Assembly: GCA_016867815.1 (NCBI GenBank)
Contig: VGIR01000004.1
Location: 488-64,487 of the forward strand
DNA length: 64,000 nt
DNA from: a candidate division WOR-3 bacterium
GTDB lineage: Bacteria > Hydrothermota > Tepidihabitantia > Tepidihabitantales > Tepidihabitantaceae
Direction: 5' to 3'
The notes below the pieces were generated by a model. The model did no database searches. It worked only from the letters and a program-made list of their open reading frames with translations, and was not told where the DNA came from. Positions 49,597 to 64,000 of the stretch are shown in pieces (within the stretch, counting starts at the first letter, position 1; each line of letters opens with the position of its first letter). A program made the translations under genes and the position numbers.

Positions 49597-50231
49597 CTCG
49601 TGGCCTCCGGTTCGAGTCGACCGGCGACGATACGGTAGAGCGAGTCGAACCGGGCGCGGTCCTGGACGAAGTGCGACACCACGAGCACGGCCCGCTTTCT
49701 CTCCCGCAGTTCGGCGGTGAGTTCCCAGAAGTGGAGGTAGGTCTCCCAGTCGAAGCCGGAGTAGGGCTCGTCGAGGACGAGGATGTCGGGGTCATGTAGG
49801 TAGGCGATGGCGAGGTTCAGTTTCTGGCGGGTGCCGCCGCTCAAGTGGTTGACCATGGTGTCGGCGTAGCGCTCGAACTTGAGCTGGCCGAGCAAGACCT
49901 GCATGCGCTTTGGCCAGTCGGCGCGGCCGTAGGCAGCGGCGAAGTAGCGGAAGTTCTCGCGCACGGTGAGCGTTTCGAAGACGAGCATCTCCTGCGGGCA
50001 ATGGCCGACGCGGCCGGACATGACGACCGTGCCGGCGTCGGGCCTGAGGCGGCCGACAATGATGTTGAGGAGGGTGCTCTTGCCCGAGCCGTTCTCGCCG
50101 GTGACGCCGGCTATTTCGCCGGGAGCGAGGCTGAGGCTCGCGTCCAAAAGAACGCGGTTGCGTCCGAACGACTTGGCCACGTTCCGGGCGAAGAGGAGCG
50201 GCCGCGTCGCCGGGTCAGTCGAAGAGGGCAT
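49593..50231 (-). CDS. ABC transporter ATP-binding protein.
   Basis: Walker A GENGSGKST, signature LSGGTRQK, Walker B ILVLDEP. Confidence 0.85.
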   Translation of the reverse strand: MPSSTDPATRPLLFARNVAKSFGRNRVLLDASLSLAPGEIAGVTGENGSGKSTLLNIIVGRLRPDAGTVVMSGRVGHCPQEMLVFETLTVRENFRYFAAAYGRADWPKRMQVLLGQLKFERYADTMVNHLSGGTRQKLNLAIAYLHDPDILVLDEPYSGFDWETYLHFWELTAELRERKRAVLVVSHFVQDRARFDSLYRIVAGRLEPEATR

Positions 50232-51114
50232 ATTCGTCTAACAGCGGCACTTCGGTGCGGAGCGTGGTCCCTGAGTGTTCGATGCGGGCTACGGCGCGGC
50301 CGGTGAACTTGACCCCGCGCGGGTTGCGGGTGATGCGGCGCAGAAGCGGCCCGGAGATAAACTCGGACTCGACCGCGGCGCTTTCGTGGACGACATCGAG
50401 TTCCACGCCGAGGCCGGGCCCGGTTGCGTTCAGGCGATAGCGGGAGGGGCACGCGATGCCGAGTTCCGGCGAAGGCCGCCACTCGGACGGCTCGACCTTA
50501 ACATCAGTCGCGACGATCACGCGCTCGCCGATCCGGAGGACAAGTCGCGGCCAGGCGCCGGCGGGACCGGATGCAACGGTGTAGGTCAGATCGCAGTAGG
50601 AATCATGGGCGCGGCCCCAGAAGAGCGTGCGGACAGGGACGGACGGCGGGAGTACGGTCGAGCGGAGATAGTCGTCGTAGCCCCGCACGTTCGAGGCGAC
50701 AATCGTCCTGCCCCGGAGTTGAACCTCACCCTGGACCATGGCGCCGAGCATTACCGGTTGCCAGAGCACAGTGCCGCGGCGCGCGGCAATCGCGAGGCCG
50801 GGGTCGGTCAGCGGCCGGGCCGTGTACTCAAGCCGGACTGAGGCGTCGGGCAGGTTGACGGCGACGGATGCGGCGGCCGGGCTGAACGTGAGCCGGCCGG
50901 CGGGGAAGTCGATGGTGGGAGTAGCGCCGCCGCTGACCTCTGCCGGCAGGCGGCCGGACCACTTCACCGGCTCATCGGTCCCGGCGCGGCGGAGGTGGAG
51001 CGCGAGTTCGGATGTGCGGGTGCCGAGGAATGCGACCTGGGCAAAGTAGCCGAAGAAGTAGTCGCCGGCTTCGGTCAGGAAGTCGAAGTACCACTTCTCC
51101 AACTGGTAGAGCAT
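50215..51114 (-). CDS. Hypothetical protein (~300 aa, soluble beta-rich; family unassigned, possibly a lipocalin/CrtC-like fold). Start at the internal MLYQLEKWYFDF.
   Basis: ATGA overlap with the upstream radical-SAM gene's stop. 17-nt overlap with the downstream ABC ATPase start. Confidence 0.5.
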   Translation of the reverse strand: MLYQLEKWYFDFLTEAGDYFFGYFAQVAFLGTRTSELALHLRRAGTDEPVKWSGRLPAEVSGGATPTIDFPAGRLTFSPAAASVAVNLPDASVRLEYTARPLTDPGLAIAARRGTVLWQPVMLGAMVQGEVQLRGRTIVASNVRGYDDYLRSTVLPPSVPVRTLFWGRAHDSYCDLTYTVASGPAGAWPRLVLRIGERVIVATDVKVEPSEWRPSPELGIACPSRYRLNATGPGLGVELDVVHESAAVESEFISGPLLRRITRNPRGVKFTGRAVARIEHSGTTLRTEVPLLDEYALFD

Positions 51115-52283
51115 CAGAAGAACGAGGGGGCCCGGTCGGTCAGTTCGCTTCCCCGGTAAGGGCCGGGATGCGGGCCGAGACACCGGCTGTCGCGGCGCGC
51201 GTAGGTGCCGTAGAGTGCCATGTTGCCGGCGCGGCAGCCGCCGGCGCAGGCCGACTTGTACGCGCAGGGCTCGCACTCTTCAGGCGTGCTCTTGAACTCG
51301 ACGAGGGCCGGGTTGGAGAAGCGACCGTGGTAGATGGTCCAGATGTCTTGCTCGGCAATGTTGCCGAGCGGGATGTCAACGATGAACGGGCAGGGCTGGA
51401 CCGATCCGTCGACCTTCACGGTCAGGACGAAGTTGCCGCCGGAGCAGGCGTTGCCGGTCAGCTCGTAGAAGCGGCGGACGAAGCGGGCGTGGTCCGGGTT
51501 CTCTTCGAGCAGTGCCCAGTGCTTGACGTCGGCCCAGGTTCGGGCCGGCACCTGGAGCGGGTCGTCTTTCATCTGCGGTGTGTATTGGTAGAAGATGGCG
51601 TGGGCGTCGAGCGCGCCACGGGCAAAGCGGTCGATCTGGCGGCAGTGCGCGGCGTTCAGGCTGTGGACCGCGCTGAAGGTGTAGACCCGGATGCCGGCGG
51701 CGCGCAGGTTGCGGATGCCCGCGACGGTGCGCGCATGGGAGCCAGGGCTGCCGGTGAACTCGTCGTGGGTCGCCGGGTCGTGGGAGATGAGTGAAACGAT
51801 GCCGGCGTCGAGCCCGGCCGCAGCGAGCTCGCGGCAGAGCGCAGGTTCGGCGGTCGTGCCGTTGGTATAGAGCGTCACGAACGGCGAGCGGGCCCGATGC
51901 TTGGCCGCGCGCACGATTTCCGCGATGCCGGGCATGAGCAGCGGCTCGCCGCCGAGCAGTTCGACCCTGACCCCGCACCCGCTGATGTCGTCGAGCAGGC
52001 GGTCTACCTGGTCGCGAGGCAGCTCCTTCTTCCCGGCCGGCACGTAGCACATGCGGCAGGAGAGGTTGCAGTAGTTGTTCAGTTCGACCTTGAGCGAGTA
52101 GAGGTAGGCGCCGACCAGTCGCCGGGCGGAGCGGGCGTAGAGCTGGGCAGCGGGCGGTGTCGTGGGCAGGCTGCCGAAGAGGTCGAGCAGGCGGAACTGG
52201 ACCCGGGTGATGGTGCGGTTCTTCTGCCGGCACCAGCGGTCGAGCGGCGCGTTCGTCGTGATGGGGCGGCCGTAGTCGAGCAT
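51114..52283 (-). CDS. Radical SAM enzyme with a C-terminal SPASM domain.
   Basis: CNLSCRMCY (CxxxCxxC). C-terminal CEPCAYKSACAGGCRAGN...C cluster typical of SPASM/twitch auxiliary Fe-S domains. Start at the internal MLDYGRP, 2 nt after the upstream stop. Confidence 0.8.
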   Translation of the reverse strand: MLDYGRPITTNAPLDRWCRQKNRTITRVQFRLLDLFGSLPTTPPAAQLYARSARRLVGAYLYSLKVELNNYCNLSCRMCYVPAGKKELPRDQVDRLLDDISGCGVRVELLGGEPLLMPGIAEIVRAAKHRARSPFVTLYTNGTTAEPALCRELAAAGLDAGIVSLISHDPATHDEFTGSPGSHARTVAGIRNLRAAGIRVYTFSAVHSLNAAHCRQIDRFARGALDAHAIFYQYTPQMKDDPLQVPARTWADVKHWALLEENPDHARFVRRFYELTGNACSGGNFVLTVKVDGSVQPCPFIVDIPLGNIAEQDIWTIYHGRFSNPALVEFKSTPEECEPCAYKSACAGGCRAGNMALYGTYARRDSRCLGPHPGPYRGSELTDRAPSFF

Positions 52284-52285
52284 GT

Positions 52286-53971
52286 TCAGCGCGTATTGGG
52301 TTCGATACCCAGTTCGTTGCGCATGATCGCGACGATGAAGTCCTGCCACTTCAGCACGCTCTCGGAAGGGAAGGTGAGCTGATAGAGCCGGCCGGCTGCG
52401 GCGTCGTAGAGCTGGAGCTTGCGGTTACTTTCGGTCGTGACCGAGCGGACCGCTGCGAGGTCGATTATGCGCGCACCGTTCGTTCCCTGGATGCCGAGGG
52501 AGCGGCGGCCGAGGGTCAGCCAGCCGGTGAGCACGGACTTGAGTTCGGTGCCGGTCTCTTCCCAGAGCTCGGCTGAGTCGGCGGCAGCGATGAGTCCTTC
52601 AGGGCCGGCAAGGTCGGCGGCCCTAATGCGAATCCGGTCGTAGACCGCGGCCAGCGGCATATCAAATGCCGCGTCGGCTTCAGACCAGCCGATAGAGTAC
52701 TCCGGGCTGATGGTGAAGGAGCGGCCGCAGTCAGGGCAGTTCAAACCGGCCGGCCCGGAGAGAGCGAGCGGACGGAAACTGCGGCAGGACGGGCAGCGGT
52801 ATACAATCTTGGTGAGTCCTGAGTTCAGTCTCCGGCTCAGGCAGCGGCGGCCCGAGTCGTCGGGCTCGATGAGCGAGCGGAGATGTCGCTCGAGCGCCCC
52901 GGTGTCGGCTCCGGGGCGCACCTTCACCGGCGCGCCGATTGCGAGTTCGACACGCGCGCGGCGCAGGTTCGATCCCCAGCGCGGCCAGGCGAGGTAGTTG
53001 CCCGAGATCCGTACCGGCACGATCGGTACATCCGGAAAATGGACGAAGAGGTTGAGCACCTCGGGCTTCCACGCCTGGGTAAGGCCGCTCCACGACCGCT
53101 CGCCTTCGGGGAAGACGCCGACGACTGCTGCTCCTTTCAGGCGCGCGGCAATCGCGCGAGCGGCGCTCACATCGTTCAGGTAGCGTTTCTTCGGAATGCA
53201 GAGGAACCTGCGAAATAGCGCGCCGAGCCGGGGACTGCGGAACATCTCGTACGTGGTGATGAAGTGGACCGGGAACCCGGCGCCGGCGCCGATGAAGGAA
53301 GGGTCGAGGTAGTTCCGGTGGGCCGCGATGATGAAGAACGGCGGCGCAAGCGGCAGGTTCTCCTTCCCGCGAATGCGGAGGTCGAACAGCACCCAGCAGA
53401 CCAGCCGAAAGAACGGGAGCAGGATGAACCCGAGGCGCGGGACGAGGAGCGGCGTGCGCCGGCAGTAGTTGCGCCAGGCGGTCCCGAAGCGGCGGTCGAG
53501 CGCGCGCTCTTCGAGGGCGATGTAGCCGGCCTCGGCCGCGACAAAGGCAGGCAGGACGATCAAGAGCAGGGACAGCGAGCGTACCAGCAGGCCGACGCCG
53601 ACGAAGAAGAGGGTGAAGAAGAGGTAGATCGGGTGGCGCCAGACCGCGTAGAGCCCGGCCTGGATGAGCCGGTCGGGCGGGAGGGCCGAGACCGGCATCG
53701 CCCGGCCGAAGTGCCGGAACTGGACGATCGAGGTGCCGAGCATCAGACCCGAGCTGACGACGATGAGTCCGCCTACGACGGTCCAGAACCATGTGAAGGC
53801 GATGTGCCAGCCCAATCGTCGGTCGAGAAAGAGCGCGCTTGCCAAGAGCAGCGCGGGCAGCACGAGCCAGAAAAGGACGATGTAGACGGCGAGCAGCAGG
53901 CCCCGGCGGATGCTACATCTCCCCGAGGTGAGAGTAGACGGTCGTCCGGAGCGGTTCGTCGACAGCAGCAC
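52286..53971 (-). CDS. Fusion protein with an N-terminal PEMT/ICMT-family membrane SAM-dependent lipid methyltransferase, a PlsC-type (lysophospholipid) acyltransferase domain, and a C-terminal Cys-containing domain.
   Basis: RHPIYLFF...EE.AL...FG..WRNYCRRTP matches the ICMT/PEMT motifs. AAHRNYLD (HxxxxD) and FPEGERS match LPLAT/PlsC motifs. About 5 TM helices. The 5' end overlaps the upstream rSAM by ~59 nt, so the start may be a non-ATG codon further in. Confidence 0.7.
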   Translation of the reverse strand: MLLSTNRSGRPSTLTSGRCSIRRGLLLAVYIVLFWLVLPALLLASALFLDRRLGWHIAFTWFWTVVGGLIVVSSGLMLGTSIVQFRHFGRAMPVSALPPDRLIQAGLYAVWRHPIYLFFTLFFVGVGLLVRSLSLLLIVLPAFVAAEAGYIALEERALDRRFGTAWRNYCRRTPLLVPRLGFILLPFFRLVCWVLFDLRIRGKENLPLAPPFFIIAAHRNYLDPSFIGAGAGFPVHFITTYEMFRSPRLGALFRRFLCIPKKRYLNDVSAARAIAARLKGAAVVGVFPEGERSWSGLTQAWKPEVLNLFVHFPDVPIVPVRISGNYLAWPRWGSNLRRARVELAIGAPVKVRPGADTGALERHLRSLIEPDDSGRRCLSRRLNSGLTKIVYRCPSCRSFRPLALSGPAGLNCPDCGRSFTISPEYSIGWSEADAAFDMPLAAVYDRIRIRAADLAGPEGLIAAADSAELWEETGTELKSVLTGWLTLGRRSLGIQGTNGARIIDLAAVRSVTTESNRKLQLYDAAAGRLYQLTFPSESVLKWQDFIVAIMRNELGIEPNTR

Positions 53972-55097
53972 TGCCGGCGCCCGGCAACGGGCTGATACGG
54001 TCGGCCACGCACACCGGGGTCAGGCGGCCGTTGCGGATGGTGGCGTCCGGGCAGTGGTAGCACATCTGAACCGCGTTCCTTTCGGCATTGAACGTCGGCG
54101 GCTCCTGCAGAACGATGTAGTGGAGCCGGATGTCCCCGGCGCCGCGGCTGTCGCGCATCAGGGCGATGAAGCGGCCGACCCGGCCGGGATGGAGCAGCAG
54201 TTCGAGGAGAATCGAACCGTAGAAGGAGAACGAGACCCTTTCCGGCCGGGTGGTCATCCCGAACGCGTAGCGGCCGTTGATGACGCGGAACGCCCACCGG
54301 AGCAGCCGGTTGAGCTGGGGCGAGAGTCCGAACGTTTCGCCGGTGCGGGCGTTGATGTTGTAGAAGTAGATGAGCCAGCTCACGTCGTCATCGCTGAGGC
54401 TGGTCGGCAGGTAGGTGACCGGCTCTACCTTGAGGTCTTGTGCGATGGTGCGGTACTCGGTCAGCATCTCAGAGCCGAAGCCGTGGCCATGGGTGGGGCT
54501 GCGACCCGCGTCGCGCGGAAGCGTCACGAGCACACCGTCAAAGAAGCGGAAGCGCGACCAGCGGCGCATCACCTGAGAAATGGTGCCGCTCGACTCGGGG
54601 TAGACCGTGACCGCGAGAGCGGCCCAGAGCCGGCGCGACTCGGCCATGCCGAGCAGCCGCTCGCAGTCGGCATCGGGATCGGGGCGGACATGCGTTTGAC
54701 CGCAGTCAACGTGGAACGCGATGCGGTCCAGCCCGGCGGTGACGAGCGCGTCCAAGTACTCGTCCCCGTCCGGTTCGAGCAGACGAAGCCCGTTGGTCAG
54801 CATTTCGCAGTAGAGGTTTTGCCTCCTGATGTAGCGGATGATCTGGGGCAGGTCGGGGTGGAGCGTGGGCTCGCCACCGAGGATGCTGATGGTCTCCAAT
54901 CGGCGCTTGGACAGCCCGAGGTCGATCTCGGCGCGGATCTGGTCGAGCGTCTTGTCCGGGGCGCGGAAGCGATTGTAGCAGGCGCGGCAGCCGAGATTGC
55001 AGCGCAGCGTGGGCTCGAGCACGAGGTGCGGTATTTCGCCAAGCGGCAGCTTCATCGGCCTGATGCCGTTGCCGGGCCGCATCTGCCTGACGTTCAC
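53913..55097 (-). CDS. Radical SAM enzyme (second) with a partial C-terminal Cys motif (CYHCPD...C).
   Basis: CNLGCRACY CxxxCxxC near the N-terminus. The true start is probably the internal ATG (MRPGNG.. or MKLPLG..). Confidence 0.75.
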   Translation of the reverse strand: MNVRQMRPGNGIRPMKLPLGEIPHLVLEPTLRCNLGCRACYNRFRAPDKTLDQIRAEIDLGLSKRRLETISILGGEPTLHPDLPQIIRYIRRQNLYCEMLTNGLRLLEPDGDEYLDALVTAGLDRIAFHVDCGQTHVRPDPDADCERLLGMAESRRLWAALAVTVYPESSGTISQVMRRWSRFRFFDGVLVTLPRDAGRSPTHGHGFGSEMLTEYRTIAQDLKVEPVTYLPTSLSDDDVSWLIYFYNINARTGETFGLSPQLNRLLRWAFRVINGRYAFGMTTRPERVSFSFYGSILLELLLHPGRVGRFIALMRDSRGAGDIRLHYIVLQEPPTFNAERNAVQMCYHCPDATIRNGRLTPVCVADRISPLPGAGSAAVDEPLRTTVYSHLGEM

Positions 55098-55384: not shown

Positions 55385-58300
55385 CTAGTGTATCTTAGTG
55401 GCCTTGCGGGTGAGGACTGTGCCTTCGCTCTCCATTCGCCAGAAGTAGATGCCCGGAGCCACGCTCCGGCCCGAGTTGTCGCGTCCGTCCCAAGCCAGGG
55501 TATAGGTGCCAGGGGCGAGGGACTTGGGCCCGGAGAGGGTTCGGACGAGGGTGCCGGTGACGGAGCGGACGGTGACGTTCACTCGGGTCCGGCGCGGGAG
55601 GCTGAGCCTGATGGTAGCACATCCGCGCATCGGGTCAGGCCGTGGCCGTTCCAGCGCGAGCACCCTGGGCAGGACTTGCAGTTCGGCCACGCCGGTGTAG
55701 GTCTCGACGAAGACCGAGTCATGGATTGCGTCGTTCGTCGGGTCCATGTCGGTTGCGAGCGTCGTGGCGCACAGGGTTGGGAACGTTCCGGGTGCGAAGG
55801 CGGTCCAGGCTGCGAAGTCGAGCGTGTCTGTCTGCCCGGCAGTCAGCGTGACCGACACCGTGTCAGCGAAGCCGGCGCCGACCGCGAACCGTACGTTGAA
55901 CATCTCCGCGGTGGTACCGAGATTCTCGACCACGGCCCGCGGCACAACAGTTGCGCCGGAGTCGACCGTGTCCCGCGGTGCCAGAAGTTGGGTGCAGGCG
56001 ACGTCGCGCACGCGCACGGTCACCAGACCCGGCAATGTATCGTTGGCCCGGTTGTTGTCGCCGGAAAGCGCGGTGGAACAGCGGACCCCGTTGTCGCCGC
56101 GCGCCGTCGCCGTCCACGTCGCGAAGCTCACCGAAGCTGAGTCGCCCGCCGCGAGATTGGTAACGTTCTGGGTATCCGCGTAGGCGCCGATGCGGAAGAC
56201 GACCGGGAAAGATGTCGCTCCTGTCCCGTAGTTTCTGACCCGCGCCTGCGGGTTGACCGCCGCGCCGGAATCAACGGTGTCGGTCGGCGCTACGATGGCA
56301 GTAACGCCGACGTTGAGCACTCGCACCGTCACTGCGCCGGACAGTGTGTCGTTGGTGTCGACCTGGTCGCCCGTAAGGTCGGTGGAGCAGCGCACGGACA
56401 ACAGGCCGCGCGGTGAAGCCGTCCAGTTTGCGAAGTTCACTTCAATCGAATCGCCGGGCGCAAGGTCGGTGACGGTCTGGGTGTTGGTGTAGTTCGGAAA
56501 GAGGGATACCGGTGAGGGGTTCGAGCCGGCGCCGGTACGGTTCATCCTCGCGCTGATGGATTTGTTGCCGGTGGCCGGCTCGACCGGGATGGTAGCGGCA
56601 GACGTGCCGGCGCTCCGGCCACTCTTCAGGTTCGCACCAATGGACATGGTTATCGGGAACGTCGCGGCGGTGTTGCCGTGATTCCGTACCCGGGCCTTCG
56701 GGGTGATGCTCGCACCCGAGTCGACCGTGCCGGCCGGTGCGACGATGGCCGTCACGCCGACATTGGTCACCCGTACCGCCACCGAGCCGGAGAGCGTGTC
56801 ATTGGCGCGGTGCTCGTCTCCGGCGAGCGCGGTGGAACAGCGAGTCGCATGGGTGCCGCGCTGCAGCGCGGTCCAGTTAGTGAATGAGACAAGGACCGAG
56901 TCACCGGCCGCAAGGTTCGATACAGTCTGGGTGTTGGAGTAGAACGAGCCAATACTGAAGTAGACCGGGAACGAGGCGGCGGACGATCCATAGTTCCTGA
57001 CCCTGGCCTGGGGCGTGACAGTGGTGCCCGAATCGAGCGTCCCGGTCGGTGCGACAATCGCGGTAACGCCGACGTCCAAAGTGGGCGGAGGCACGACAGT
57101 GACAAGGCCAGATAGCGTATCGTTTGTCTGCACCTGGTCATTGGCCAGGCCGGTCGAGCAGCGTTTGACATGGGTGCCAAGCTGCAGCGCGCTCCAACCA
57201 AGGAAGGTCACCTGAGCCGAGTCGCCGGCCGCGAGGTTCGTGACGGTCTGGGAGTCGGAGTAGAACGAGCCGATGCGGAAAGTGACCGGGAAAGTGGCGG
57301 CAGCCGTGCCGTAGTTCCTCACCCGGGCCTTTGGCGCAACGACCGTGCCCGAATCGACGGTGTCGACGGGCGCGGTGATCGCGAAGACACCGACATTCGT
57401 GACACGTACAGCTACCGAGCCGGAGAGCGTGTCGTTGGCGTGATTCTGGTCATTGGTGAGGTCGGTGGAGCAGCGAGTGACGTGGGTGCCGCGCTGCGTC
57501 GCGGTCCAATTGGTGAACGAGACCAGCGCCGAGTCACCAGCCGCGAGGTTGGTGACCGTCTGCGTGTTGGTGTAGAAGGAGCCGATGCGGAAGGTGGTTG
57601 GGAATGTGGCGGCGCCGGTGCCGTAGTTCCTCACCTTGGCCTGCGGGGTTACGGTCGTGCCGGAATCGAGCGTACCGGTCGGGGCCACGATTGCGGTAAC
57701 ACCGACATTGAGCACGCGCACCGTCACCGAACCGGAGAGCGTGTCGTTAGCGGGATACTGGTCGCCAACCAGCGCCGTAGAACAGCGCGTTGCGTGCGTG
57801 CCGCGTTGCGTCGCGGTCCAGTTCGTGAATGAGACAAGGGCCGAGTCGCCGGCAGCCAGATTGGTGACGTTCTGGGTGTTGGAGTAGAAGGAGCCGACCC
57901 GGAACGTGACCGGGAACGTAGCGGCGCCGGTGCCGTAGTTCCGCGCTCTGGCTCTTGGTGTCACGACCGTGCCCGAGTCGATGGTGCCGGTCGGCGCGAC
58001 CAACGCGGTCATGCCGACATTGATGACCCGCACGGTGACGGAGCCAGCCAGCGTGTCGTTCGTCTTGTCCTGGTCGCCGGTCAGCGCGGTGGAGCAACGG
58101 GTAGCGTGGGTGCCGCGTTGCGTCGCGATCCAGTTCGTGAACGACACCAGCAGGGAGTCGCCGGGCGCGAGGTTGGAGACATTCTGGGTATTGTTGTAGA
58201 AGGAACCGATCTTGAACGTGACCGGAAAGGTGACAGAACCGGTGCCGTAGTTCCTGACTCTGGCTCTCGGCGTCACGACCGTGCCCGAGTCAACCGTGCC

Positions 58301-61300
58301 GATAGGCGCGACAATCGTTGTGACGCCAACGTTGGTGACCCGCACTGTAACGGACCCCGGCAGCGTGTCGTTGGCTTTGTTCTGGTCGCCGGCGAGCGCG
58401 GTGGAGCAGCGAGTGGCGTGGGTGCCGCGTTGCGTCGCGGTCCAGTTGGTGAGCGATACCAGCACGGAGTCTCCGGGCGCCAGGTTACTGACATTCTGGG
58501 AGTTGTTGTAGAACGAACCGATCTTGAAGAAGGCCGGGAACGAAACCGCATCGGTGCCGTAGTTCCTGACTCTGGCCTGAGGCGCAACGGTCGTGCCGGA
58601 GTCGACCGTGCCGGTCGGGGCGACAATAGCTGTTACACCGACATCGGTTACTCGAACCTTCACCGTCCCGGACAGCGTATCGTTAGTGTGTACCTGGTCG
58701 CCCGCAAGTGCGGTGGAGCAGCGCGTGGTGTGCGTGCCGCGTTGCGTGGCGGTCCAGTTGCTGAACGAGACCACAGTCGAATCACCGGCCGCGAGGTTCG
58801 TCACGGTCTGGGAATTGGAGTAGAAGGAACCGATCTTGAAGAAGGCCGGGAACGAAGCCGGATCGGTGCCGTAGTTCCTGACTTTGGCCTGAGGCGCAAT
58901 GGTCGTGCCGGAGTCCACGATGCCGGTGGGTGCGACGATGGCGGTTATCCCGACATTCGTCACCCGCACCTTCACGGAACCGGACAGCGTGTCGTTGCTG
59001 TGCACCTGGTCGCCGGCGAGGTCGGTGGAGCAGCGCGTGATGTGCGTGCCGCGTTGTACTGCGGTCCATGCGGCGAACGAAACCAGGGTTGAGTCACCGG
59101 CCGCAAGGTCGGTGACGTTCTGCGAATTGGAGTAGAAGGCGCCGATGCGGAAGAAGACGGGGAACGAAGCAGGGCCGGTGCCGTAGTTCCTGACCCGGGC
59201 CTGGGGCGTGACCGACGTGCTGGAGTCAACAGTGCCGATGGGCGCGACGATTGCGGCCACGCCGACATTGGTTACGCGCACCATCACGGTGCCGGCCAGG
59301 GTGTCGTTGGCGCGGTACTGGTCGCCGGAGAGGTCGGTCGAGCAGCGCACGGACAAGAGGCCGCGCGGCGCAGCAGCCCAGTTGGTGAAGCTGACCAGGA
59401 GTGAGTCACCGGCCGCAAGGCTGGTAACCGTCTGGGTGTTGGTGTAGCCGGTGCCGATGCGCATCGTGACCGGGAAGGTGGCGGCGGACGTGCCGTAATT
59501 CTTGACGCGGGCCTGGGGTGTTACCGTCGTACCGGAGTCGACGGTGCCCGTGGGCGCGAGGATTGCGGTCACCCCGACATTGGTGACTCGCACGGTCACG
59601 GAACCGGACAGCGCGTCGTTTGTGGGGACCTGGTCGCCGGTGAGGGCGGTGGAGCAGCGGGTGGCGTGGGTGCCACGCTGCGTGGCGGTCCAGTTTGTGA
59701 ACGACACCGAGGCCGAGTCCCCGGCCGCAAGGCTCGTGACATTCTGGGTGTTGGAGTAGAACGAGCCGATGCGGAAGGTCACCGGGAATGTCGCCGCTGC
59801 CGTGCCGTAGTTCTTCACCCGGGCCTGCGGGGTGACGGTCGTACCGGAGTCGATTGTGCCCGTGGGTGCAACAATTGTGGCCACACCGACATCGGCTACC
59901 CGCACCATCACGGTGCCCGCCAGTGTGTCGTTAGTGTGGTACTGGTCGCCGGAGAGGTTGGTCGAGCAGCGCACAGACAGCAGGCCGCGCGGTGCCGCCG
60001 TCCAGTTGATGAAGTTGACCAGGAGCGAGTCGCCGGCAGCGAGGCTGGTGACCGTCTGGGTGTTGGTGTAGCCGGTGCCGATACGCAGCGTTACCGGGAA
60101 AGTGGCTGCTGCCGTGCCGCAGTTCTTCACCCGGGCCTTTGGGGTGACGACTGCACCCGAATCGACCGTGCCGGTGGGTGCGACAATCGCGGTTACGCCG
60201 ACGTCAGTTACCCGCACCGTGACCGAGCCGGCGAGCGTGTCGTTGGTGTGGTTCTGATCGCCCGAGAGGTTGGTCGAGCAGCGCGTGACGTGGGTGCCCC
60301 GCTGAGTTGCGGTCCAGTTGGTGAACGATACCAGCGCCGAGTCACCGGCCGCCAGGTTGGTTACCGTCTGAGTATTGGAGTAGAAGGAGCCTATCCGGAA
60401 GGTGACAGGGAATGTTGCCGCTGCCGTGCCGTAGTTCCTGACCCTGGATTGCGGAGCAACGGTCGTGCCGGAATCGATTGTACCGGCGGGGACGACGATG
60501 GCGTTGACACCGACATCGAGCACCCGCACCGTCACCGTACCGGGCAGCGTGTCGTTACTGCGCAGTTGGTCACCGGCGAGGGCGGTGGAGCAGCGGGTAG
60601 CGTGGGTGCCGCGCTGCACTGCGGTCCAGTTGGTGAAGCTGACCTGAACTGAGTCGCCGGCGGCAAGACTCGTCACGGTCTGCGTGTTTGTGTAGAACGA
60701 GCCGATGCGGAAAGTTACCGGGAACGTGGCCGCTGCCGTACCGTAGTTCTTCACCCGGGCCTGCGGGGTGACCACGGTGCCCGAGTCGACGGTACCCGTG
60801 GGCGCGAGGATTGCGGCCACCCCGACATCGGTGACTCGCACGGTCACGGAACCGGAAAGCGCATCGTTGCCGGGGACCTGGTCGCCGGTGAGGGCGGTGG
60901 AACAGCGGGTGGTGTGCGTGCCGCGCTGCGTAGCGGTCCAGTTCGTGAATGACACCAGGGCCGAGTCACCAGCCGCGAGGTTGGTGACGGTCTGCGAGTT
61001 GGAGTAGAAAGAACCGATCTTGAAGTAGACGGGGAAAGTCGCGGTGGATGTACCTGAGTTCTTCACGCGAGCCTGCGGTGTCACGGTAGTGCCGGAGTCG
61101 ATGGTGCCGGTGGGCGAGACAATCGCGGTCACGCCGACGTTGGTCACCTTGACCGTCACGGAACCCGATAGTGCGTCGTTGGCGAGGTTCTGGTCACTTG
61201 TCAGGGCGGTCGTGCAGCGAGTGGTGTGCGTTCCGCGCTGCGTCGCGGTCCAACTGGTGAATGACACCAGGGCCGAGTCCCCCGGCGCGAGGTTGATGAC

Positions 61301-63988
61301 ATTCTGGGAGTTGTTGTAGAAGGAGCCGATGCGGAAGGTCACCGGGAAAGTGGCGCTCACGTTGCCGAAGTTCTTGACCCTGGCCTGCGGGGTGATGGCT
61401 GCGCCGGAGTCCACCGTCCCGACAGGCGCGACAATCGCGGTAACGCCGACGTCCATCACCACAGGAATGCGCACTGTCACCAGTCCGGAGAGGGTATCAT
61501 TGCCCGGCACCATGTCGCCGGAGAGACCGGTGGAGCAGCGTTTAACGTGCGTCCCGCGCTGCAGCACATTCCAGGAGGTGAAGGAGACCAGCGCCGAGTC
61601 GCCGGCCGCGAGGCCGGTAACGGTCTGAGTGTTGTTGTAGAACGAGCCGATGCGGAAAGTCACCGGGAATGTCGCCGCTGCCGTGCCGTAGTTCTTCACC
61701 CGGGCCTGCGGGGTTACGGTTGTGCCGGAGTCGACCGTGTCGGGCGGCACGACAATCGCCCTAACGCCTACGTTGACCACGCGCACCGTCACCGAGCCGG
61801 AGAGCGTGTCGTTGCCCGGGACCTGGTCGCCGGTGAGCGCGGTGGAGCAGCGGGTGGCGTGGGTGCCGCGCTGCACTGCGGTCCAGTTCGTGAAAGAGAC
61901 CAGCGCCGAATCGCCGGCAGCGAGATTGGTGACCGTCTGGGTGTTGGAGTAGAACGAGCCGATCCTGAAGAACACCGGGAACGTCGCTGCACCGGTGCCA
62001 TGGTTCTTCACCCGAGCCTGTGGCGTGATGGCTGTCCCGGAGTCCACCGTGCCGATGGGCGCGACGATCGCCGTCACGCCGACGTTGGTCACCCGTACCG
62101 TGACGGAACCTGAGAGCGCATCGTTGCCGGGGACCTGGTCGCCCGAAAGGGCGGTGGTGCAACGGGTGGTATGGGTGCCGCGCTGCAATGCAGTCCAGTT
62201 GGTGAAAGAGACCAGCGCCGAGTCACCCGGCGCGAGGTTGGTGACTGTCTGTGTGTTGGTATAGAAGGAGCCGACCTTGAACGTCACAGGGAATGTAGCC
62301 GAACCGGTGCCGTAGTTCTTGACCCGCGCTCGCGGCGTGACGACCGTGCCCGAGTCAACCGTGCCGATAGGCGCGACAATCGCGGTGACACCGACATTGG
62401 TGACACGCACGGTGACGGAGCCAGGCAGTGTGTCGTTGGCCTTGTTCTGGTCGCCGGTGAGCGCGGTTGAGCAACGGGTAGCGTGGGTGCCGCGTTGCGT
62501 CGCGGTCCAGTTCGTGAACGACACCAGCAGGGAGTCGCCGGGCGCGAGGTTGGAGACATTCTGGGTGTTGTTGTAGAAGGAACCGATCTTGAACGTGACG
62601 GGGAACGACGCACCGGACGAGCCAAAGTTCTTGACCCGGGCTTTGGGAGCTATGACAGTTCCGGAGTCGATGGTCCCGGTGGGCGCGGTGATCTGGGTTA
62701 CACCGACATCCGTACGGATGATTCGGGCCCGGGCATACACCCCGACATTGTAGTCCGGGATGCTGACCGGCGTGTCGCTCGATATGCCGGTCGCGTTCCA
62801 CGCCAGGTGCGTGGCCGCAAAGTAGTTGATGGTGCCGGTCTTGGAATCGGAGACGTCGTCAATTGCCCGGACAAAGACTGTGTCGGTCGTGTTGTTGGTG
62901 ATGTAAGGTTCGCCTTCGGTCATGTCGAAGACGATGTTGTTGTTCGGGAACGAGCGGTCGACTCTTGGGTAGCGCCAGGTACGGAAGTTCTTCTGCCAAT
63001 TGGGGGACGAGGGACGGCCGACGCCCAGGCGGATGCCGATCTTGTCCCGGGCTGCATGGGTTATCTTCACGCGGCCGAGCATGGTTGGCGAGTAGCCGAT
63101 GAGGTCATCGAGGTAGTACCCGACCTGATGGGAGAGTACTATGTGCCGGGCCGCCACGTACGACATCCAGCAGTACCCGGACTGGCCCCAGCCCGTGCCC
63201 CAGGAATTGATGATCTTGAAGGCGCCGGTCCCGTCGTTCGTGGTCATGGTGTCGTTGTAGCCGACGATGGTTATGGCGTGGCTGCCGCGGTCGCCGCCGT
63301 AGGTATCGGCCACGCAGTACTTGTAGCCATAGTTGTGAACGTTGTCGAAATTGGAGTAGACCTCGATGCCGATGACCGTTGTATAGCCACTGTCGAGCCG
63401 CCGTTTGGCCTGCTTGATTCCGTTGGTGTCGGTCATCCAGAACCAGTGGGCGGTGCCGCCGCGGAACGGTATGGCCCGGGAATAGGCCGATTCGGATGGC
63501 CAGGATGTGTAATCGTTCTGGTTGTAAGGGCAGTCGGCCATGGTCGCGCAGCCCTGCTCATTGATGAGAGAGAAGGCGGTGGACGTACTCGACCCCAGGT
63601 CGTCGCCGCCGTTTATCTGGTTGTAGATGAACTTCGGGCTGAACTGGTGGCTGGTCTGGCCCAGGTCCCACTGGTGTTCGATCCATTCGTAGTGGGTCTT
63701 CTGGTAGTAGCCGACCGCCCACGCGGTACACGAACCCTGGGATCCCTGGTTCCCGACCGGCGGCATCTGACCGGACAAGTCAACCGATACAGCGAGGCGG
63801 GGAGGCACGCTCGGAACGATCGTGTCCTGGACCATCCACGGAACCGTGCGCGGATCCTCGCGGATCAGGCCACACGGATGCAGCTCGGGGGAATCCGAGC
63901 CACGTTGCCCCACGGCCGAACTCTGCCGGTTGGAGTTCGGCAGGGTCTGGGCCAGGACAGGGCTGAAGAGAACCGCACCAAGCAGCAT
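55385..63988 (-). CDS. Giant (2867 aa) secreted papain-family (C1A) cysteine peptidase with ~22 tandem CARDB repeats and a T9SS C-terminal sorting domain.
   Basis: Signal peptide MLLGAVLFSPVLA. C1 motifs QGSQGSCTAWAVGYY (Cys), HAITIVGY (His) and NSWGTGWGQSGYCWM (Asn). ~104-aa repeats (VGVTAIVAPTGTVDSGT.VTPQARVKNYGTAAATFPVTFRIGSFYSNTQTVTNLAAGDS.LVSFTNWTA.QRGTH..RCST.L.GDQ...ND.LSGSVTV). C-terminus ...GIYFWRMESEGTVLTRKATKIH. Confidence 0.85.
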   Translation of the reverse strand: MLLGAVLFSPVLAQTLPNSNRQSSAVGQRGSDSPELHPCGLIREDPRTVPWMVQDTIVPSVPPRLAVSVDLSGQMPPVGNQGSQGSCTAWAVGYYQKTHYEWIEHQWDLGQTSHQFSPKFIYNQINGGDDLGSSTSTAFSLINEQGCATMADCPYNQNDYTSWPSESAYSRAIPFRGGTAHWFWMTDTNGIKQAKRRLDSGYTTVIGIEVYSNFDNVHNYGYKYCVADTYGGDRGSHAITIVGYNDTMTTNDGTGAFKIINSWGTGWGQSGYCWMSYVAARHIVLSHQVGYYLDDLIGYSPTMLGRVKITHAARDKIGIRLGVGRPSSPNWQKNFRTWRYPRVDRSFPNNNIVFDMTEGEPYITNNTTDTVFVRAIDDVSDSKTGTINYFAATHLAWNATGISSDTPVSIPDYNVGVYARARIIRTDVGVTQITAPTGTIDSGTVIAPKARVKNFGSSGASFPVTFKIGSFYNNTQNVSNLAPGDSLLVSFTNWTATQRGTHATRCSTALTGDQNKANDTLPGSVTVRVTNVGVTAIVAPIGTVDSGTVVTPRARVKNYGTGSATFPVTFKVGSFYTNTQTVTNLAPGDSALVSFTNWTALQRGTHTTRCTTALSGDQVPGNDALSGSVTVRVTNVGVTAIVAPIGTVDSGTAITPQARVKNHGTGAATFPVFFRIGSFYSNTQTVTNLAAGDSALVSFTNWTAVQRGTHATRCSTALTGDQVPGNDTLSGSVTVRVVNVGVRAIVVPPDTVDSGTTVTPQARVKNYGTAAATFPVTFRIGSFYNNTQTVTGLAAGDSALVSFTSWNVLQRGTHVKRCSTGLSGDMVPGNDTLSGLVTVRIPVVMDVGVTAIVAPVGTVDSGAAITPQARVKNFGNVSATFPVTFRIGSFYNNSQNVINLAPGDSALVSFTSWTATQRGTHTTRCTTALTSDQNLANDALSGSVTVKVTNVGVTAIVSPTGTIDSGTTVTPQARVKNSGTSTATFPVYFKIGSFYSNSQTVTNLAAGDSALVSFTNWTATQRGTHTTRCSTALTGDQVPGNDALSGSVTVRVTDVGVAAILAPTGTVDSGTVVTPQARVKNYGTAAATFPVTFRIGSFYTNTQTVTSLAAGDSVQVSFTNWTAVQRGTHATRCSTALAGDQLRSNDTLPGTVTVRVLDVGVNAIVVPAGTIDSGTTVAPQSRVRNYGTAAATFPVTFRIGSFYSNTQTVTNLAAGDSALVSFTNWTATQRGTHVTRCSTNLSGDQNHTNDTLAGSVTVRVTDVGVTAIVAPTGTVDSGAVVTPKARVKNCGTAAATFPVTLRIGTGYTNTQTVTSLAAGDSLLVNFINWTAAPRGLLSVRCSTNLSGDQYHTNDTLAGTVMVRVADVGVATIVAPTGTIDSGTTVTPQARVKNYGTAAATFPVTFRIGSFYSNTQNVTSLAAGDSASVSFTNWTATQRGTHATRCSTALTGDQVPTNDALSGSVTVRVTNVGVTAILAPTGTVDSGTTVTPQARVKNYGTSAATFPVTMRIGTGYTNTQTVTSLAAGDSLLVSFTNWAAAPRGLLSVRCSTDLSGDQYRANDTLAGTVMVRVTNVGVAAIVAPIGTVDSSTSVTPQARVRNYGTGPASFPVFFRIGAFYSNSQNVTDLAAGDSTLVSFAAWTAVQRGTHITRCSTDLAGDQVHSNDTLSGSVKVRVTNVGITAIVAPTGIVDSGTTIAPQAKVRNYGTDPASFPAFFKIGSFYSNSQTVTNLAAGDSTVVSFSNWTATQRGTHTTRCSTALAGDQVHTNDTLSGTVKVRVTDVGVTAIVAPTGTVDSGTTVAPQARVRNYGTDAVSFPAFFKIGSFYNNSQNVSNLAPGDSVLVSLTNWTATQRGTHATRCSTALAGDQNKANDTLPGSVTVRVTNVGVTTIVAPIGTVDSGTVVTPRARVRNYGTGSVTFPVTFKIGSFYNNTQNVSNLAPGDSLLVSFTNWIATQRGTHATRCSTALTGDQDKTNDTLAGSVTVRVINVGMTALVAPTGTIDSGTVVTPRARARNYGTGAATFPVTFRVGSFYSNTQNVTNLAAGDSALVSFTNWTATQRGTHATRCSTALVGDQYPANDTLSGSVTVRVLNVGVTAIVAPTGTLDSGTTVTPQAKVRNYGTGAATFPTTFRIGSFYTNTQTVTNLAAGDSALVSFTNWTATQRGTHVTRCSTDLTNDQNHANDTLSGSVAVRVTNVGVFAITAPVDTVDSGTVVAPKARVRNYGTAAATFPVTFRIGSFYSDSQTVTNLAAGDSAQVTFLGWSALQLGTHVKRCSTGLANDQVQTNDTLSGLVTVVPPPTLDVGVTAIVAPTGTLDSGTTVTPQARVRNYGSSAASFPVYFSIGSFYSNTQTVSNLAAGDSVLVSFTNWTALQRGTHATRCSTALAGDEHRANDTLSGSVAVRVTNVGVTAIVAPAGTVDSGASITPKARVRNHGNTAATFPITMSIGANLKSGRSAGTSAATIPVEPATGNKSISARMNRTGAGSNPSPVSLFPNYTNTQTVTDLAPGDSIEVNFANWTASPRGLLSVRCSTDLTGDQVDTNDTLSGAVTVRVLNVGVTAIVAPTDTVDSGAAVNPQARVRNYGTGATSFPVVFRIGAYADTQNVTNLAAGDSASVSFATWTATARGDNGVRCSTALSGDNNRANDTLPGLVTVRVRDVACTQLLAPRDTVDSGATVVPRAVVENLGTTAEMFNVRFAVGAGFADTVSVTLTAGQTDTLDFAAWTAFAPGTFPTLCATTLATDMDPTNDAIHDSVFVETYTGVAELQVLPRVLALERPRPDPMRGCATIRLSLPRRTRVNVTVRSVTGTLVRTLSGPKSLAPGTYTLAWDGRDNSGRSVAPGIYFWRMESEGTVLTRKATKIH
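55900..62650 (-). repeat. Tandem ~312-bp (104-codon) coding repeat array (~21-22 units, highly similar at DNA level) inside the giant gene.
   Basis: Periodicity is visible in the plus-strand shadow ORFs spaced ~312 nt apart and in the protein repeats. One or two units carry a divergent insert. Confidence 0.8.
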
Positions 63989-64000
63989 GAGCCAACGGGC

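What the first reader, a model, noticed from the sequence alone, without database searches (positions are those of the whole stretch)
55385..63988. Giant T9SS-sorted papain-family (C1) peptidase carrying ~22 near-identical CARDB repeats
This single 8.6-kb gene encodes signal peptide, C1A peptidase (Cys/His/Asn motifs intact), 22 tandem CARDB units and a T9SS CTD. The repeats are highly similar at DNA level (~312-bp period), implying recent expansion or ongoing concerted evolution, and they make the locus assembly-fragile. C1 peptidases delivered by T9SS on a long CARDB stalk are not a described virulence or nutrition factor class (gingipains are C25). This is likely a surface-anchored or secreted protease held away from the cell.
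Basis: partly seen in the sequence, partly recalled or inferred. Interest (0 to 1): 0.55.

Follow-up and report, generated by a model that had tools for sequence, protein, structure and literature searches.

The report
Long-stalked surface cysteine protease of WOR-3
This is a real 2,877-residue secreted papain-type protease from an uncultured WOR-3 bacterium. Its active head sits on a rod of 22 old, diverged Ig-like (CARDB) domains, and the number of domains ranges from 2 to 27 in related genomes. It is an unusual but understandable variant of a modular surface enzyme.

Summary
The gene is real. The ORF at 55385-63988 (minus strand) runs off the window; the true start is 30 nt further on and the product is 2,877 aa. 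It is already deposited as a WOR-3 "hypothetical protein" (MBM3330497.1).

Confirmed:
- A Sec-type leader.
- Exactly 22 CARDB units of 104 aa (312 bp).
- A roughly 100-aa C-terminal beta-sandwich domain.

Not confirmed:
- The units are not near-identical. DNA identity averages 71% and peaks at 83%, median dS is 0.97, and dN/dS is 0.21.
- Units 1-5 have positional orthologues in another species. The array is therefore old and conserved, not recently expanded or homogenised.
- It is not an assembly artefact. Five contigs encode the identical protein.
- The C-terminal domain passes FlgD_ig but falls below the T9SS type A cut-offs, although relatives pass them. T9SS machinery in WOR-3 was not tested.

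New findings:
- Orthologues carry 2, 3, 6, 7, 10, 16, 21, 22 or 27 units.
- A short paralogue sits directly upstream in several of the related genomes.
- The head module belongs to a very large uncharacterised family with many kinds of tail.

This is of moderate interest.

The parts
63950..64000 (-). Sec-type signal peptide, residues 7-23 of the full protein. Codons 1-6 and the ATG lie 30 nt beyond the window end. Predicted cleavage is VLA|Q between residues 23 and 24.
   Evidence: No in-frame stop up to the window edge. The full N-terminus MKNAVCARWLMLLGAVLFSPVLA-Q was read on the identical contig L004, with a GGGAGG ribosome-binding site upstream. The signal peptide was judged by reading the sequence; no predictor was run.
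63884..63949 (-). Low-confidence, probably disordered linker (full-protein residues 24-45).
   Evidence: AlphaFold pLDDT is below 50 for residues 18-43. This stretch is not conserved in the 42-sequence alignment.
63107..63883 (-). Conserved N-terminal segment (LHPCGLIREDPRTVPW) plus the papain-fold C1A catalytic domain (full-protein residues 46-304).
63728..63730 (-). Codon of the catalytic Cys97. The partner codons are Gln91 at 63746-63748, His247 at 63278-63280 and Asn271 at 63206-63208.
   Evidence: Coordinates checked. All four residues are invariant in 42 homologues. They align with the GSC, GGHA and NSWG motifs of xylellain.
62711..63106 (-). Beta-sandwich domain fused to the protease (full-protein residues 305-436). 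Together with the C1 domain it forms the conserved 'head' module.
55697..62710 (-). Array of 22 tandem CARDB Ig-like units, abutting with no linkers (full-protein residues 437-2774).
   Evidence: Pfam CARDB 292 bits. All 22 units are hit by an HMM built from the units themselves. TRF period is 312 bp.
56315..56764 (-). Unit 20, which carries a 46-residue low-complexity loop insertion.
   Evidence: Unit alignment. Analogous insertions of unrelated sequence occur in the third-from-last unit of orthologues L006 and L017.
55388..55696 (-). C-terminal beta-sandwich domain of about 100 aa, of FlgD_ig / T9SS-CTD type. It is the presumed sorting or anchoring tag. The stop codon TAG is at 55385-55387.
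   Evidence: FlgD_ig 40.5 bits against a cut-off of 27; TIGR04183 17.1 bits against 23; PF18962 17.2 bits against 27. Model pLDDT is 93. The best fold matches are the PorZ and PorU CTDs and FlgD.

Best explanation
The gene encodes a surface-displayed or secreted papain-type (C1A) cysteine endopeptidase of an uncultured WOR-3 (Caldifarciminota) bacterium.

SHOWN
- A Sec leader.
- A short conserved N-terminal segment followed by a catalytically intact C1 domain fused to a beta-sandwich. Together these form the 'head'.
- 22 abutting CARDB Ig-like domains.
- A 100-residue C-terminal beta-sandwich of the FlgD_ig / T9SS-CTD superfamily.

INFERRED
- After Sec export, the C-terminal domain directs the protein across the outer membrane by a CTD-dependent (T9SS-like) route and tethers it there.
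- The C-terminus is then next to the cell and the protease head sits at the far end of a rod. The rod would be roughly 80-100 nm long, assuming about 4 nm per Ig-like domain (my own estimate).
- The enzyme would then digest proteins beyond the cell's own surface layers, or on particles, to feed the cell.

HISTORY OF THE STALK
- The stalk is not a recent repeat expansion. Its units are old and individually under purifying selection as strong as that on the catalytic head.
- Stalk length changes slowly, by gain and loss of internal units. Orthologues carry from 2 to 27 units.
- A short-stalk paralogue (2 units in this genome and in UBA2258) lies immediately upstream, so the cell probably displays the same kind of head at two different heights.
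For: REAL GENE
- The window is identical (0 mismatches in 20,088 nt) to a second JGI contig.
- The exact 2,877-aa product is recorded on 5 contigs and in GenBank and UniRef.
- Two Logan contigs are 100% identical over the last 7 units.
- A further JGI contig with frameshifts encodes fragments that match units 1-8 and 12-22 of this protein, in the same order.

ACTIVE PROTEASE
- Pfam C1 scores above its cut-off. Gln91, Cys97, His247 and Asn271 are invariant in 42 homologues.
- Head dN/dS is 0.14 against the UBA2258 orthologue.

OLD, CONSTRAINED STALK
- Between units, median dS is 0.97 and dN/dS 0.21; third-position identity is 54%.
- Orthologous units 1-5 have dN/dS 0.11 at dS 0.61.
- Positional orthology is seen with arrays of 27 and 21 units.

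VARIABLE LENGTH
- 27, 22, 21, 16, 10, 7, 6, 3 and 2 units occur in related genomes and metagenome contigs.
- The heads of the downstream genes of the tandem pairs, which carry 3 to 27 units, form one clade in an NJ tree.

SORTING TAG
- The same C-terminal domain type ends at least four unrelated proteins in this window. One of them (22521-23912) has a canonical Por_Secre_tail at 45.9 bits.
- 28 of 32 family CTDs hit TIGR04183 at E<=0.01, with a best E of 5e-13.
- Orthologues L009 and L016 (78-79% head identity) end in a bona fide Por_Secre_tail instead, at 35-39 bits.
- The best fold matches of the CTD model are the CTDs of the T9SS proteins PorZ and PorU.
- T9SS attaches cargo to the cell surface through A-LPS (PMC8754138, PMC12704123).
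Against: - This protein's own CTD is below the curated T9SS cut-offs (17 bits against 23 and 27). By sequence profile it is closer to flagellar FlgD (E 1e-7) than to PorU (3e-4) or PorZ (5e-3).
- Reviews describe T9SS as specific to the FCB superphylum, or as rarely if ever found outside Bacteroidetes (PMC12398890, PMC5837995). NCBI taxonomy does not place WOR-3 in the FCB group.
- No T9SS component lies in the 72-kb contig, and the rest of the genome could not be searched.
- The strong constraint on each unit (dN/dS 0.11) is more than a passive spacer would seem to need, so the units may bind something.
- There is no experimental evidence for activity, location or tethering.
- The rod geometry was not modelled.
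Confidence: 0.6

Rival explanations
1. Multivalent adhesin-protease. The CARDB units are binding modules rather than spacers. They would give high-avidity attachment to a polymeric or particulate substrate or to another cell, and the head would act on what is bound. The protein may be released rather than tethered.
For: Each unit is under purifying selection as strong as that on the catalytic head (dN/dS 0.11 against 0.14; 0.21 among units). Many surface positions are invariant across the 21 similar units, including DSG, GDS, RC.T and ND motifs. Pfam defines CARDB as a cell-adhesion-related domain. The same head is fused elsewhere to cohesin, Calx-beta, Kelch, RCC1 and beta-helix tails that are typical binding modules.
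Against: No ligand is known for CARDB. Copy number runs freely from 2 to 27 among close relatives, which suits a length-setting role as well as an avidity role. The conserved residues may simply be fold or interdomain contacts. This reading is not mutually exclusive with the stalk model.
Confidence: 0.25
2. The C-terminal FlgD_ig-type domain is not a T9SS signal. WOR-3 would use it for something else, such as a different outer-membrane export or anchoring system, or as a plain structural or binding domain.
For: The domain is sub-threshold for TIGR04183 and PF18962 but above threshold for FlgD_ig. The profile matches FlgD best in the PDB. T9SS is not described for WOR-3. No T9SS gene is in the contig.
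Against: The domain is strictly C-terminal on unrelated proteins in the same window. Close orthologues swap it for a canonical Por_Secre_tail. 28 of 32 relatives hit TIGR04183. The best structural matches include the PorZ and PorU CTDs. All scores against flagellar FlgD equivalog models are far below their cut-offs (26.8 bits against 230).
Confidence: 0.3
3. The array was recently expanded or is being homogenised: near-identical units that expand and contract quickly and make the locus unstable.
For: The period is regular at 312 bp with no linkers. One 61-bp exact match between units 1 and 15, and a few matches of 31-60 nt, may be small gene-conversion tracts. Unit number differs among species.
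Against: Mean DNA identity is 71% and the maximum 83%. Median dS is 0.97 and the minimum 0.50. Same-position units in other species are more similar than any units within the array. Arrays from four lineages all show the same mean internal identity of about 73% or lower. Five contigs encode the identical product.
Confidence: 0.05
4. The array is an assembly artefact: a collapsed, expanded or chimeric join of CARDB repeats from several genes or strains.
For: k=31 Logan contigs break inside unit 16 at a 32-nt exact repeat. One JGI contig carries the gene with several frameshifts.
Against: Artefactual repeats would be identical, whereas these differ by 17-49%. The longest exact repeat is 61 bp, shorter than a read. 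The frame is intact over 8.6 kb. The sequence is identical in separate contigs. Units are collinear with arrays of 27 and 21 units in other species.
Confidence: 0.03

Closest known systems
The 726-750-aa WOR-3 'C1 peptidase - 2 CARDB - FlgD_ig/T9SS CTD' proteins (for example P0001 from UBA2258 and P0021, which NCBI names 'T9SS type A sorting domain-containing protein')
   Same: The head is the same at 68-84% identity, as are the last two CARDB units and the CTD. One such gene lies directly upstream of this one.
   Different: They have 2 CARDB units where this protein has 22. The first ancestral unit has been multiplied: unit 1 keeps its head end and unit 21 its tail end. None has been characterised.
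Xylellain, the C1A cysteine protease of Xylella fastidiosa (PDB 3OIS)
   Different: It is a single-domain protein with no beta-sandwich, stalk or C-terminal sorting domain.
Cwp84 of Clostridioides difficile (PDB 4CI7, 4D59)
   Different: It comes from a Gram-positive organism and is anchored by cell-wall-binding repeats (my own knowledge). It has no CARDB array or CTD, and it has a long propeptide.
Gingipains RgpB and Kgp, and other T9SS type A cargo proteases
   Same: The plan is the same: Sec leader, protease, Ig-like domain(s), then a C-terminal beta-sandwich sorting domain. Surface attachment is through the C-terminus (PMC8754138, PMC5837995).
   Different: Gingipains belong to family C25, not C1, and occur in Bacteroidota. 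They have one Ig-like domain or haemagglutinin domains rather than a 22-unit array. Their CTDs pass TIGR04183, whereas this one does not.
Fibrillar adhesins and giant repeat-stalk surface proteins (concept in PMC8877628)
   Same: A functional domain sits at one end, a long run of tandem Ig-like stalk domains follows, and an anchor lies at the other end. Stalk copy number varies between relatives.
   Different: Here the distal functional domain is a protease rather than an adhesive domain, and the stalk units are much more diverged from each other than in many such proteins.

Membership tests
Papain family, MEROPS C1A / Pfam PF00112 | Sequence matches the family model above its curated cut-off | tested here: met
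   41.5 bits against a cut-off of 20.7, covering profile positions 13-205 of 220. Scanning the whole protein gave 37 bits.
Papain family, MEROPS C1A / Pfam PF00112 | Catalytic Cys-His dyad with the oxyanion Gln and the orienting Asn, in family order | tested here: met
   Gln91, Cys97, His247 and Asn271 are invariant in 42 homologues. They align with the corresponding xylellain motifs. Codons were verified.
Papain family, MEROPS C1A / Pfam PF00112 | Papain two-lobe fold | tested here: met
Papain family, MEROPS C1A / Pfam PF00112 | I29-type inhibitory prodomain (typical of the family, not obligatory) | tested here: not met
Papain family, MEROPS C1A / Pfam PF00112 | Thiol-dependent, E-64-sensitive peptidase activity | not testable with these tools
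   This needs the expressed protein.
CARDB, Pfam PF07705 | Repeated match to the domain model | tested here: met
   292 bits in total, with 11 stretches passing on their own. All 22 units are hit (122-183 bits) by an HMM built from these same units, so this count is not independent.
T9SS type A cargo | N-terminal Sec (SPI) signal peptide | tested here: met
   MKNAVCARW-LMLLGAVLFSPVLA|Q was read on L004. This is by inspection only; no signal-peptide predictor was available.
T9SS type A cargo | C-terminal domain reaching the curated cut-off of TIGR04183 / PF18962 | tested here: not met
   17.1 bits against 23, and 17.2 bits against 27.
T9SS type A cargo | C-terminal domain homologous to, and interchangeable with, recognised T9SS CTDs | tested here: inconclusive
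   28 of 32 relatives hit TIGR04183 at E<=0.01. Orthologues L009 and L016 carry a true Por_Secre_tail. The best fold matches are the PorZ and PorU CTDs, but FlgD scores equally well.
T9SS type A cargo | Genome encodes the T9SS machinery (PorK/L/M/N, Sov/SprA, PorV, PorU, PorZ) | not testable with these tools
   Only about 72 kb of this genome could be reached, and it holds none of these genes. No seed sequences or taxon-restricted search were available. The literature search found nothing on WOR-3 and T9SS.
T9SS type A cargo | CTD removed by PorU and the cargo linked to A-LPS | not testable with these tools
   This is an experimental question.
Flagellar FlgD (hook cap) | Full-length match to FlgD equivalog models | tested here: not met
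   The best score is 26.8 bits against a cut-off of 230, and only the Ig-like subdomain matches. The Pfam FlgD_ig domain itself is met at 40.5 bits against 27.

The most novel reading that the evidence does not exclude
WOR-3 (Caldifarciminota) is a phylum outside the FCB group as NCBI classifies it. It may run a CTD-dependent, T9SS-like sorting pathway whose commonest tag is a FlgD_ig-type variant of the T9SS C-terminal domain. Within that system, the number of CARDB units would act as an evolvable molecular ruler that sets how far a papain-type head is held from the outer membrane. Tandem short (2-unit) and long (up to 27-unit) paralogues would give the cell proteolytic layers at different heights.
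Probability: 0.3. Interest if true: 0.55.

Novelty: new variant of a known kind. Interest (0 to 1): 0.35.

Why it matters
WOR-3 is almost entirely uncultured, and genome surveys of it do not discuss peptidases or secretion. This locus gives three testable handles.

1. Many unrelated proteins in this genome share one C-terminal tag that grades into the T9SS type A CTD. This points to CTD-dependent surface sorting in a phylum where T9SS is not described.
2. The head (C1 domain plus beta-sandwich) belongs to a very large uncharacterised family. It has about 12,000 representative clusters at E<=1e-3, fused to many different tails. These may be a major class of environmental extracellular proteases.
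3. Related genes range from 2 to 27 stalk units, with each unit under strong constraint. This is a natural series for asking what stalk length does for a surface enzyme.

None of this overturns current ideas. It extends known designs to a new lineage and a new extreme.

Tried and rejected
- Looking up P0032 and P0132 to fetch the 29.4-kb frameshifted JGI contig failed; neither is on record. The full-length protein could not be looked up by the look-up of encoding contigs. I used the listing of cluster members instead.
- A word-indexed search with two CARDB units returned only 10 short fragments and none of the giant proteins, so it said nothing about other arrays. The genome and metagenome locus scans answered that question instead.
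- Literature searches for WOR-3 with T9SS, for FlgD_ig as a sorting tag, for T9SS in candidate phyla, and for papain/C1/CARDB with T9SS found nothing relevant.
- I considered fishing for T9SS machinery but dropped it. No seed sequences were available, hit lists cannot be restricted by taxon, and only about 20 kb around a looked-up gene can be read.
- Phase variation by slipped-strand mispairing was rejected because the units are too diverged.
- The antisense ORFs of 220-328 aa inside the array were rejected as genes because they have a mirror-image GC pattern.
- The NCBIfam hits to 7alpha-HSDH and SctQ, and the Pfam hits to DUF6406, CBM_56 and DUF4694, are short sub-threshold matches inside the repeats. 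I disregarded them.
- The promoter and terminator scan gave one sigma70-like site in the right place, but no more sites than chance predicts, and no terminator after the gene.
Full report
WHAT IS THERE

The window holds one ORF at 55385..63988 on the minus strand, 2,867 codons long. At 65% GC a stop-free run of this length has a probability of about 1e-32. Its GC3 is 0.82, like neighbouring genes. The 220-328-aa ORFs on the opposite strand have their GC peak at codon position 1, so they are antisense shadows.

The reading frame is still open at the window edge. A JGI contig matches the window with 0 mismatches over 20,088 nt. On it the gene starts 30 nt further upstream, behind a GGGAGG ribosome-binding site, and the product is 2,877 aa beginning MKNAVCARWLMLLGAVLFSPVLA|Q. 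Residue numbers below refer to this full protein.

The exact sequence is already public as MBM3330497.1, 'hypothetical protein FJY68_01440 [candidate division WOR-3 bacterium]' (UniRef A0A937XC51). It is recorded on five contigs, the longest 72,268 nt.

ANATOMY

- Residues 1-23 read as a Sec signal peptide (by inspection).
- Residues 24-45 are predicted to be disordered.
- Gln91, Cys97, His247 and Asn271 are invariant in 42 homologues, and their codons were verified.
- There is no I29 prodomain. A conserved segment of about 35 residues, LHPCGLIREDPRTVPW..., precedes the domain and may act as a short prosegment. This is an inference from the longer alignments to zymogen structures.
- Residues 305-436 form a confident beta-sandwich that travels with the protease in all relatives. 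The two-domain plan resembles the Cwp84 protease plus lectin-like domain.
- Residues 437-2774 are 22 CARDB units with no linkers between them.
- Residues 2775-2877 are a beta-sandwich C-terminal domain with model pLDDT 93.

THE REPEATS ARE NOT NEAR-IDENTICAL

- Pairwise DNA identity averages 71% and peaks at 83%. Protein identity averages 69% and peaks at 86%. TRF reports 74% matches.
- The longest exact repeat in the gene is 61 bp.
- Between units, median dS is 0.97 and the minimum 0.50, dN/dS is 0.21, and third-position identity is only 54%.
- Against the orthologue in WOR-3 bacterium UBA2258 (27 units), units 1-5 and 9 match the same-position units at 87-91%, and the last two units match their counterparts at 80-82%. 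That is more than they match any unit of their own array, where the maximum is 86%. The same holds for several units of a 21-unit metagenomic orthologue.
- Orthologous units 1-5 show dN/dS 0.11 at dS 0.61. The head shows dN/dS 0.14 at dS 0.60.

The array therefore predates these species. It is not being homogenised, and each unit is as constrained as the enzyme itself.

IT IS NOT AN ARTEFACT

- Artefactual repeats would be identical. These are not.
- Separate contigs agree base for base.
- A further JGI contig with frameshifts encodes fragments that match units 1-8 and 12-22 of this protein, in the same order.
- Only k=31 Logan contigs break. They break in unit 16, exactly where a 32-nt exact repeat lies at 57798 and 62487. 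'Assembly-fragile' is therefore true only for small-k assemblers.

RELATIVES

- The head has 393 relatives at E<=1e-5 in the 90%-clustered database, mostly from WOR-3. The typical form is 726-750 aa: head, 2 CARDB units and CTD.
- Comparison shows that unit 22 is the ancestral second CARDB. Unit 1 keeps the head end and unit 21 the tail end of the ancestral first CARDB. The expansion therefore happened inside the first unit.
- In species-representative genomes and metagenome contigs, orthologues have 27, 22, 21, 16, 10, 7, 6, 3 or 2 units.
- The heads of the downstream genes of these tandem pairs, which carry 3 to 27 units, group together in a neighbour-joining tree (no bootstrap support was computed).
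- In this genome and in L006-L010, L016-L020, L024 and L027, a second copy of the head lies directly upstream on the same strand. Up to three tandem copies occur.
- In an exhaustive HMMER search the head matches 11,981 representative clusters at E<=1e-3 and 1,157 at E<=1e-30. Lengths reach 4,026 aa. The long ones I sampled carry other tails: cohesin, Calx-beta with ASH-type Ig domains, beta-helix, and RCC1 with fn3.

The giant CARDB form is thus one variant of a very large, modular and uncharacterised family.

THE C-TERMINAL DOMAIN AND THE T9SS CLAIM

Against the claim:
- This protein's domain passes FlgD_ig (40.5 bits against 27) but not TIGR04183 (17.1 against 23) or PF18962 (17.2 against 27).
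- A profile of 32 family CTDs matches FlgD best in the PDB (E 1e-7), then the CTDs of PorU (3e-4) and PorZ (5e-3).
- No T9SS gene lies in the reachable 72 kb.
- Reviews restrict T9SS to the FCB superphylum or essentially to Bacteroidetes (PMC12398890, PMC5837995).
- NCBI taxonomy does not place WOR-3 (Caldifarciminota) in the FCB group.
- I found no paper on T9SS in WOR-3.

For the claim:
- Foldseek ranks the PorZ and PorU CTDs first, with FlgD level with them.
- 28 of the 32 family CTDs hit TIGR04183 at E<=0.01, with a best E of 5e-13.
- NCBI names some orthologues 'T9SS type A sorting domain-containing protein'.
- Two orthologues with 78-79% head identity end in a Kelch propeller plus a bona fide Por_Secre_tail at 35-39 bits.
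- Within this window, a 463-aa protein (22521-23912) has a canonical Por_Secre_tail at 45.9 bits. Three other unrelated proteins end in FlgD_ig-type domains.

The domain therefore behaves as an interchangeable C-terminal sorting tag related to T9SS CTDs. I could not search the whole genome for the machinery. 'T9SS-sorted' is plausible (about 0.6) but unproven.

MECHANISM

Shown: a leader, an intact C1 active site, an old and constrained 22-domain Ig-like array, and a C-terminal tag shared with other exported proteins.

Inferred:
- Sec export is followed by CTD-dependent passage of the outer membrane and tethering by the C-terminus, as for T9SS cargo (PMC8754138, PMC12704123).
- This would place the protease at the tip of a rod. 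I estimate the rod at 80-100 nm, assuming about 4 nm per domain; this is not computed.
- The likely role is extracellular protein digestion at a distance from the cell surface.
- The short upstream paralogue would provide the same chemistry close to the surface.

The main rival is that the units are binding modules giving avidity. The strong constraint on each unit favours some interaction surface, and the two readings are compatible with each other.

VERDICT

- The evolutionary reading (near-identical, recent, unstable) is wrong.
- The T9SS label is a reasonable but untested extrapolation.
- The thing itself is a new variant of a known design, already deposited but uncharacterised.
- Interest is moderate. 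The value lies in the natural 2-27-unit stalk series, and in the hint of CTD-dependent sorting in WOR-3.

Noticed in passing
L004:1-736 (just beyond window coordinate 64000, same strand as the giant gene): A 728-aa paralogue (C1 head, 2 CARDB units, FlgD_ig CTD) ends 328 nt upstream of the giant gene. The same tandem arrangement recurs in L006-L010, L016-L020, L024 and L027, with up to three copies. A sigma70-like site (TTGACG-16-TAGAAT) lies in the gap at L004:909-936.
   Followed up: partly
window 22521-23912 (+), 14121-16343 (+), 20384-22513 (+), 39219-40697 (+): Four other proteins in the window end in the same class of C-terminal domain. They are a 463-aa protein with a canonical Por_Secre_tail (45.9 bits), a CARDB protein, an arylsulfotransferase and a nitroreductase-domain protein; the last three carry FlgD_ig-type tails, weak or faint in two of them. 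This suggests a proteome-wide sorting tag in a WOR-3 genome.
   Followed up: partly
window 56315-56764 (unit 20): The third-from-last CARDB unit has a 46-residue low-complexity loop insertion. The 27-unit and 21-unit orthologues (L006, L017) also have an insertion in that unit, but with unrelated sequence. It may be a hinge or a processing site.
   Followed up: partly
window 55697-62710 (whole array): The motif D-[ST]-[AILVMT], known to me as the Bacteroidota general O-glycosylation motif, occurs 45 times in the array against 14 +/- 3.5 in shuffles. It sits at two conserved positions per unit (GDSA/L and NDT/AL). Each unit also has one conserved unpaired Cys (R-C-S-T). The array contains only 6 Glu but 118 Asp.
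   Followed up: partly
window 63947-63949 (residue 24): The predicted signal-peptidase cut would expose an N-terminal Gln, as in the 'Bacteroidetes Q-rule' (PMC5837995). The UBA2258 orthologue also has Gln after its predicted site.
   Followed up: no
L009:2466-6005 and L016:9968-13432: Orthologues with 78-79% head identity have a different tail: 3 CARDB units, a Kelch beta-propeller and a canonical Por_Secre_tail. This shows that both the tail and the tag are swapped within the clade.
   Followed up: yes
window 49593-55082 (minus strand, downstream of the giant gene): This is a cluster of two radical SAM proteins (one with a SPASM domain), a PEMT-acyltransferase fusion, an unannotated 299-aa protein, an ABC ATPase and a 271-aa protein. 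It may be a modification or export cassette. No link to the protease is evident.
   Followed up: no
window 18013-19959 (-): A 648-aa protein made almost entirely of CarboxypepD_reg repeats, another tandem beta-sandwich repeat protein in the same contig.
   Followed up: no
JGI contig of 29,429 nt (proteins P0032, P0123, P0122, P0132): Another assembly of the same locus splits the giant gene into at least three ORFs through frameshifts and small indels, while keeping the unit order. This could be a noisy assembly or a decaying allele. The contig could not be fetched.
   Followed up: partly
window 57170-57832, 58106-59092, 59666-60652 (+): Long antisense ORFs of 220-328 aa recur with the repeat period. 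Their GC pattern (0.81, 0.55, 0.55) mirrors the real gene, so they are shadows. An annotation pipeline could miscall them.
   Followed up: yes
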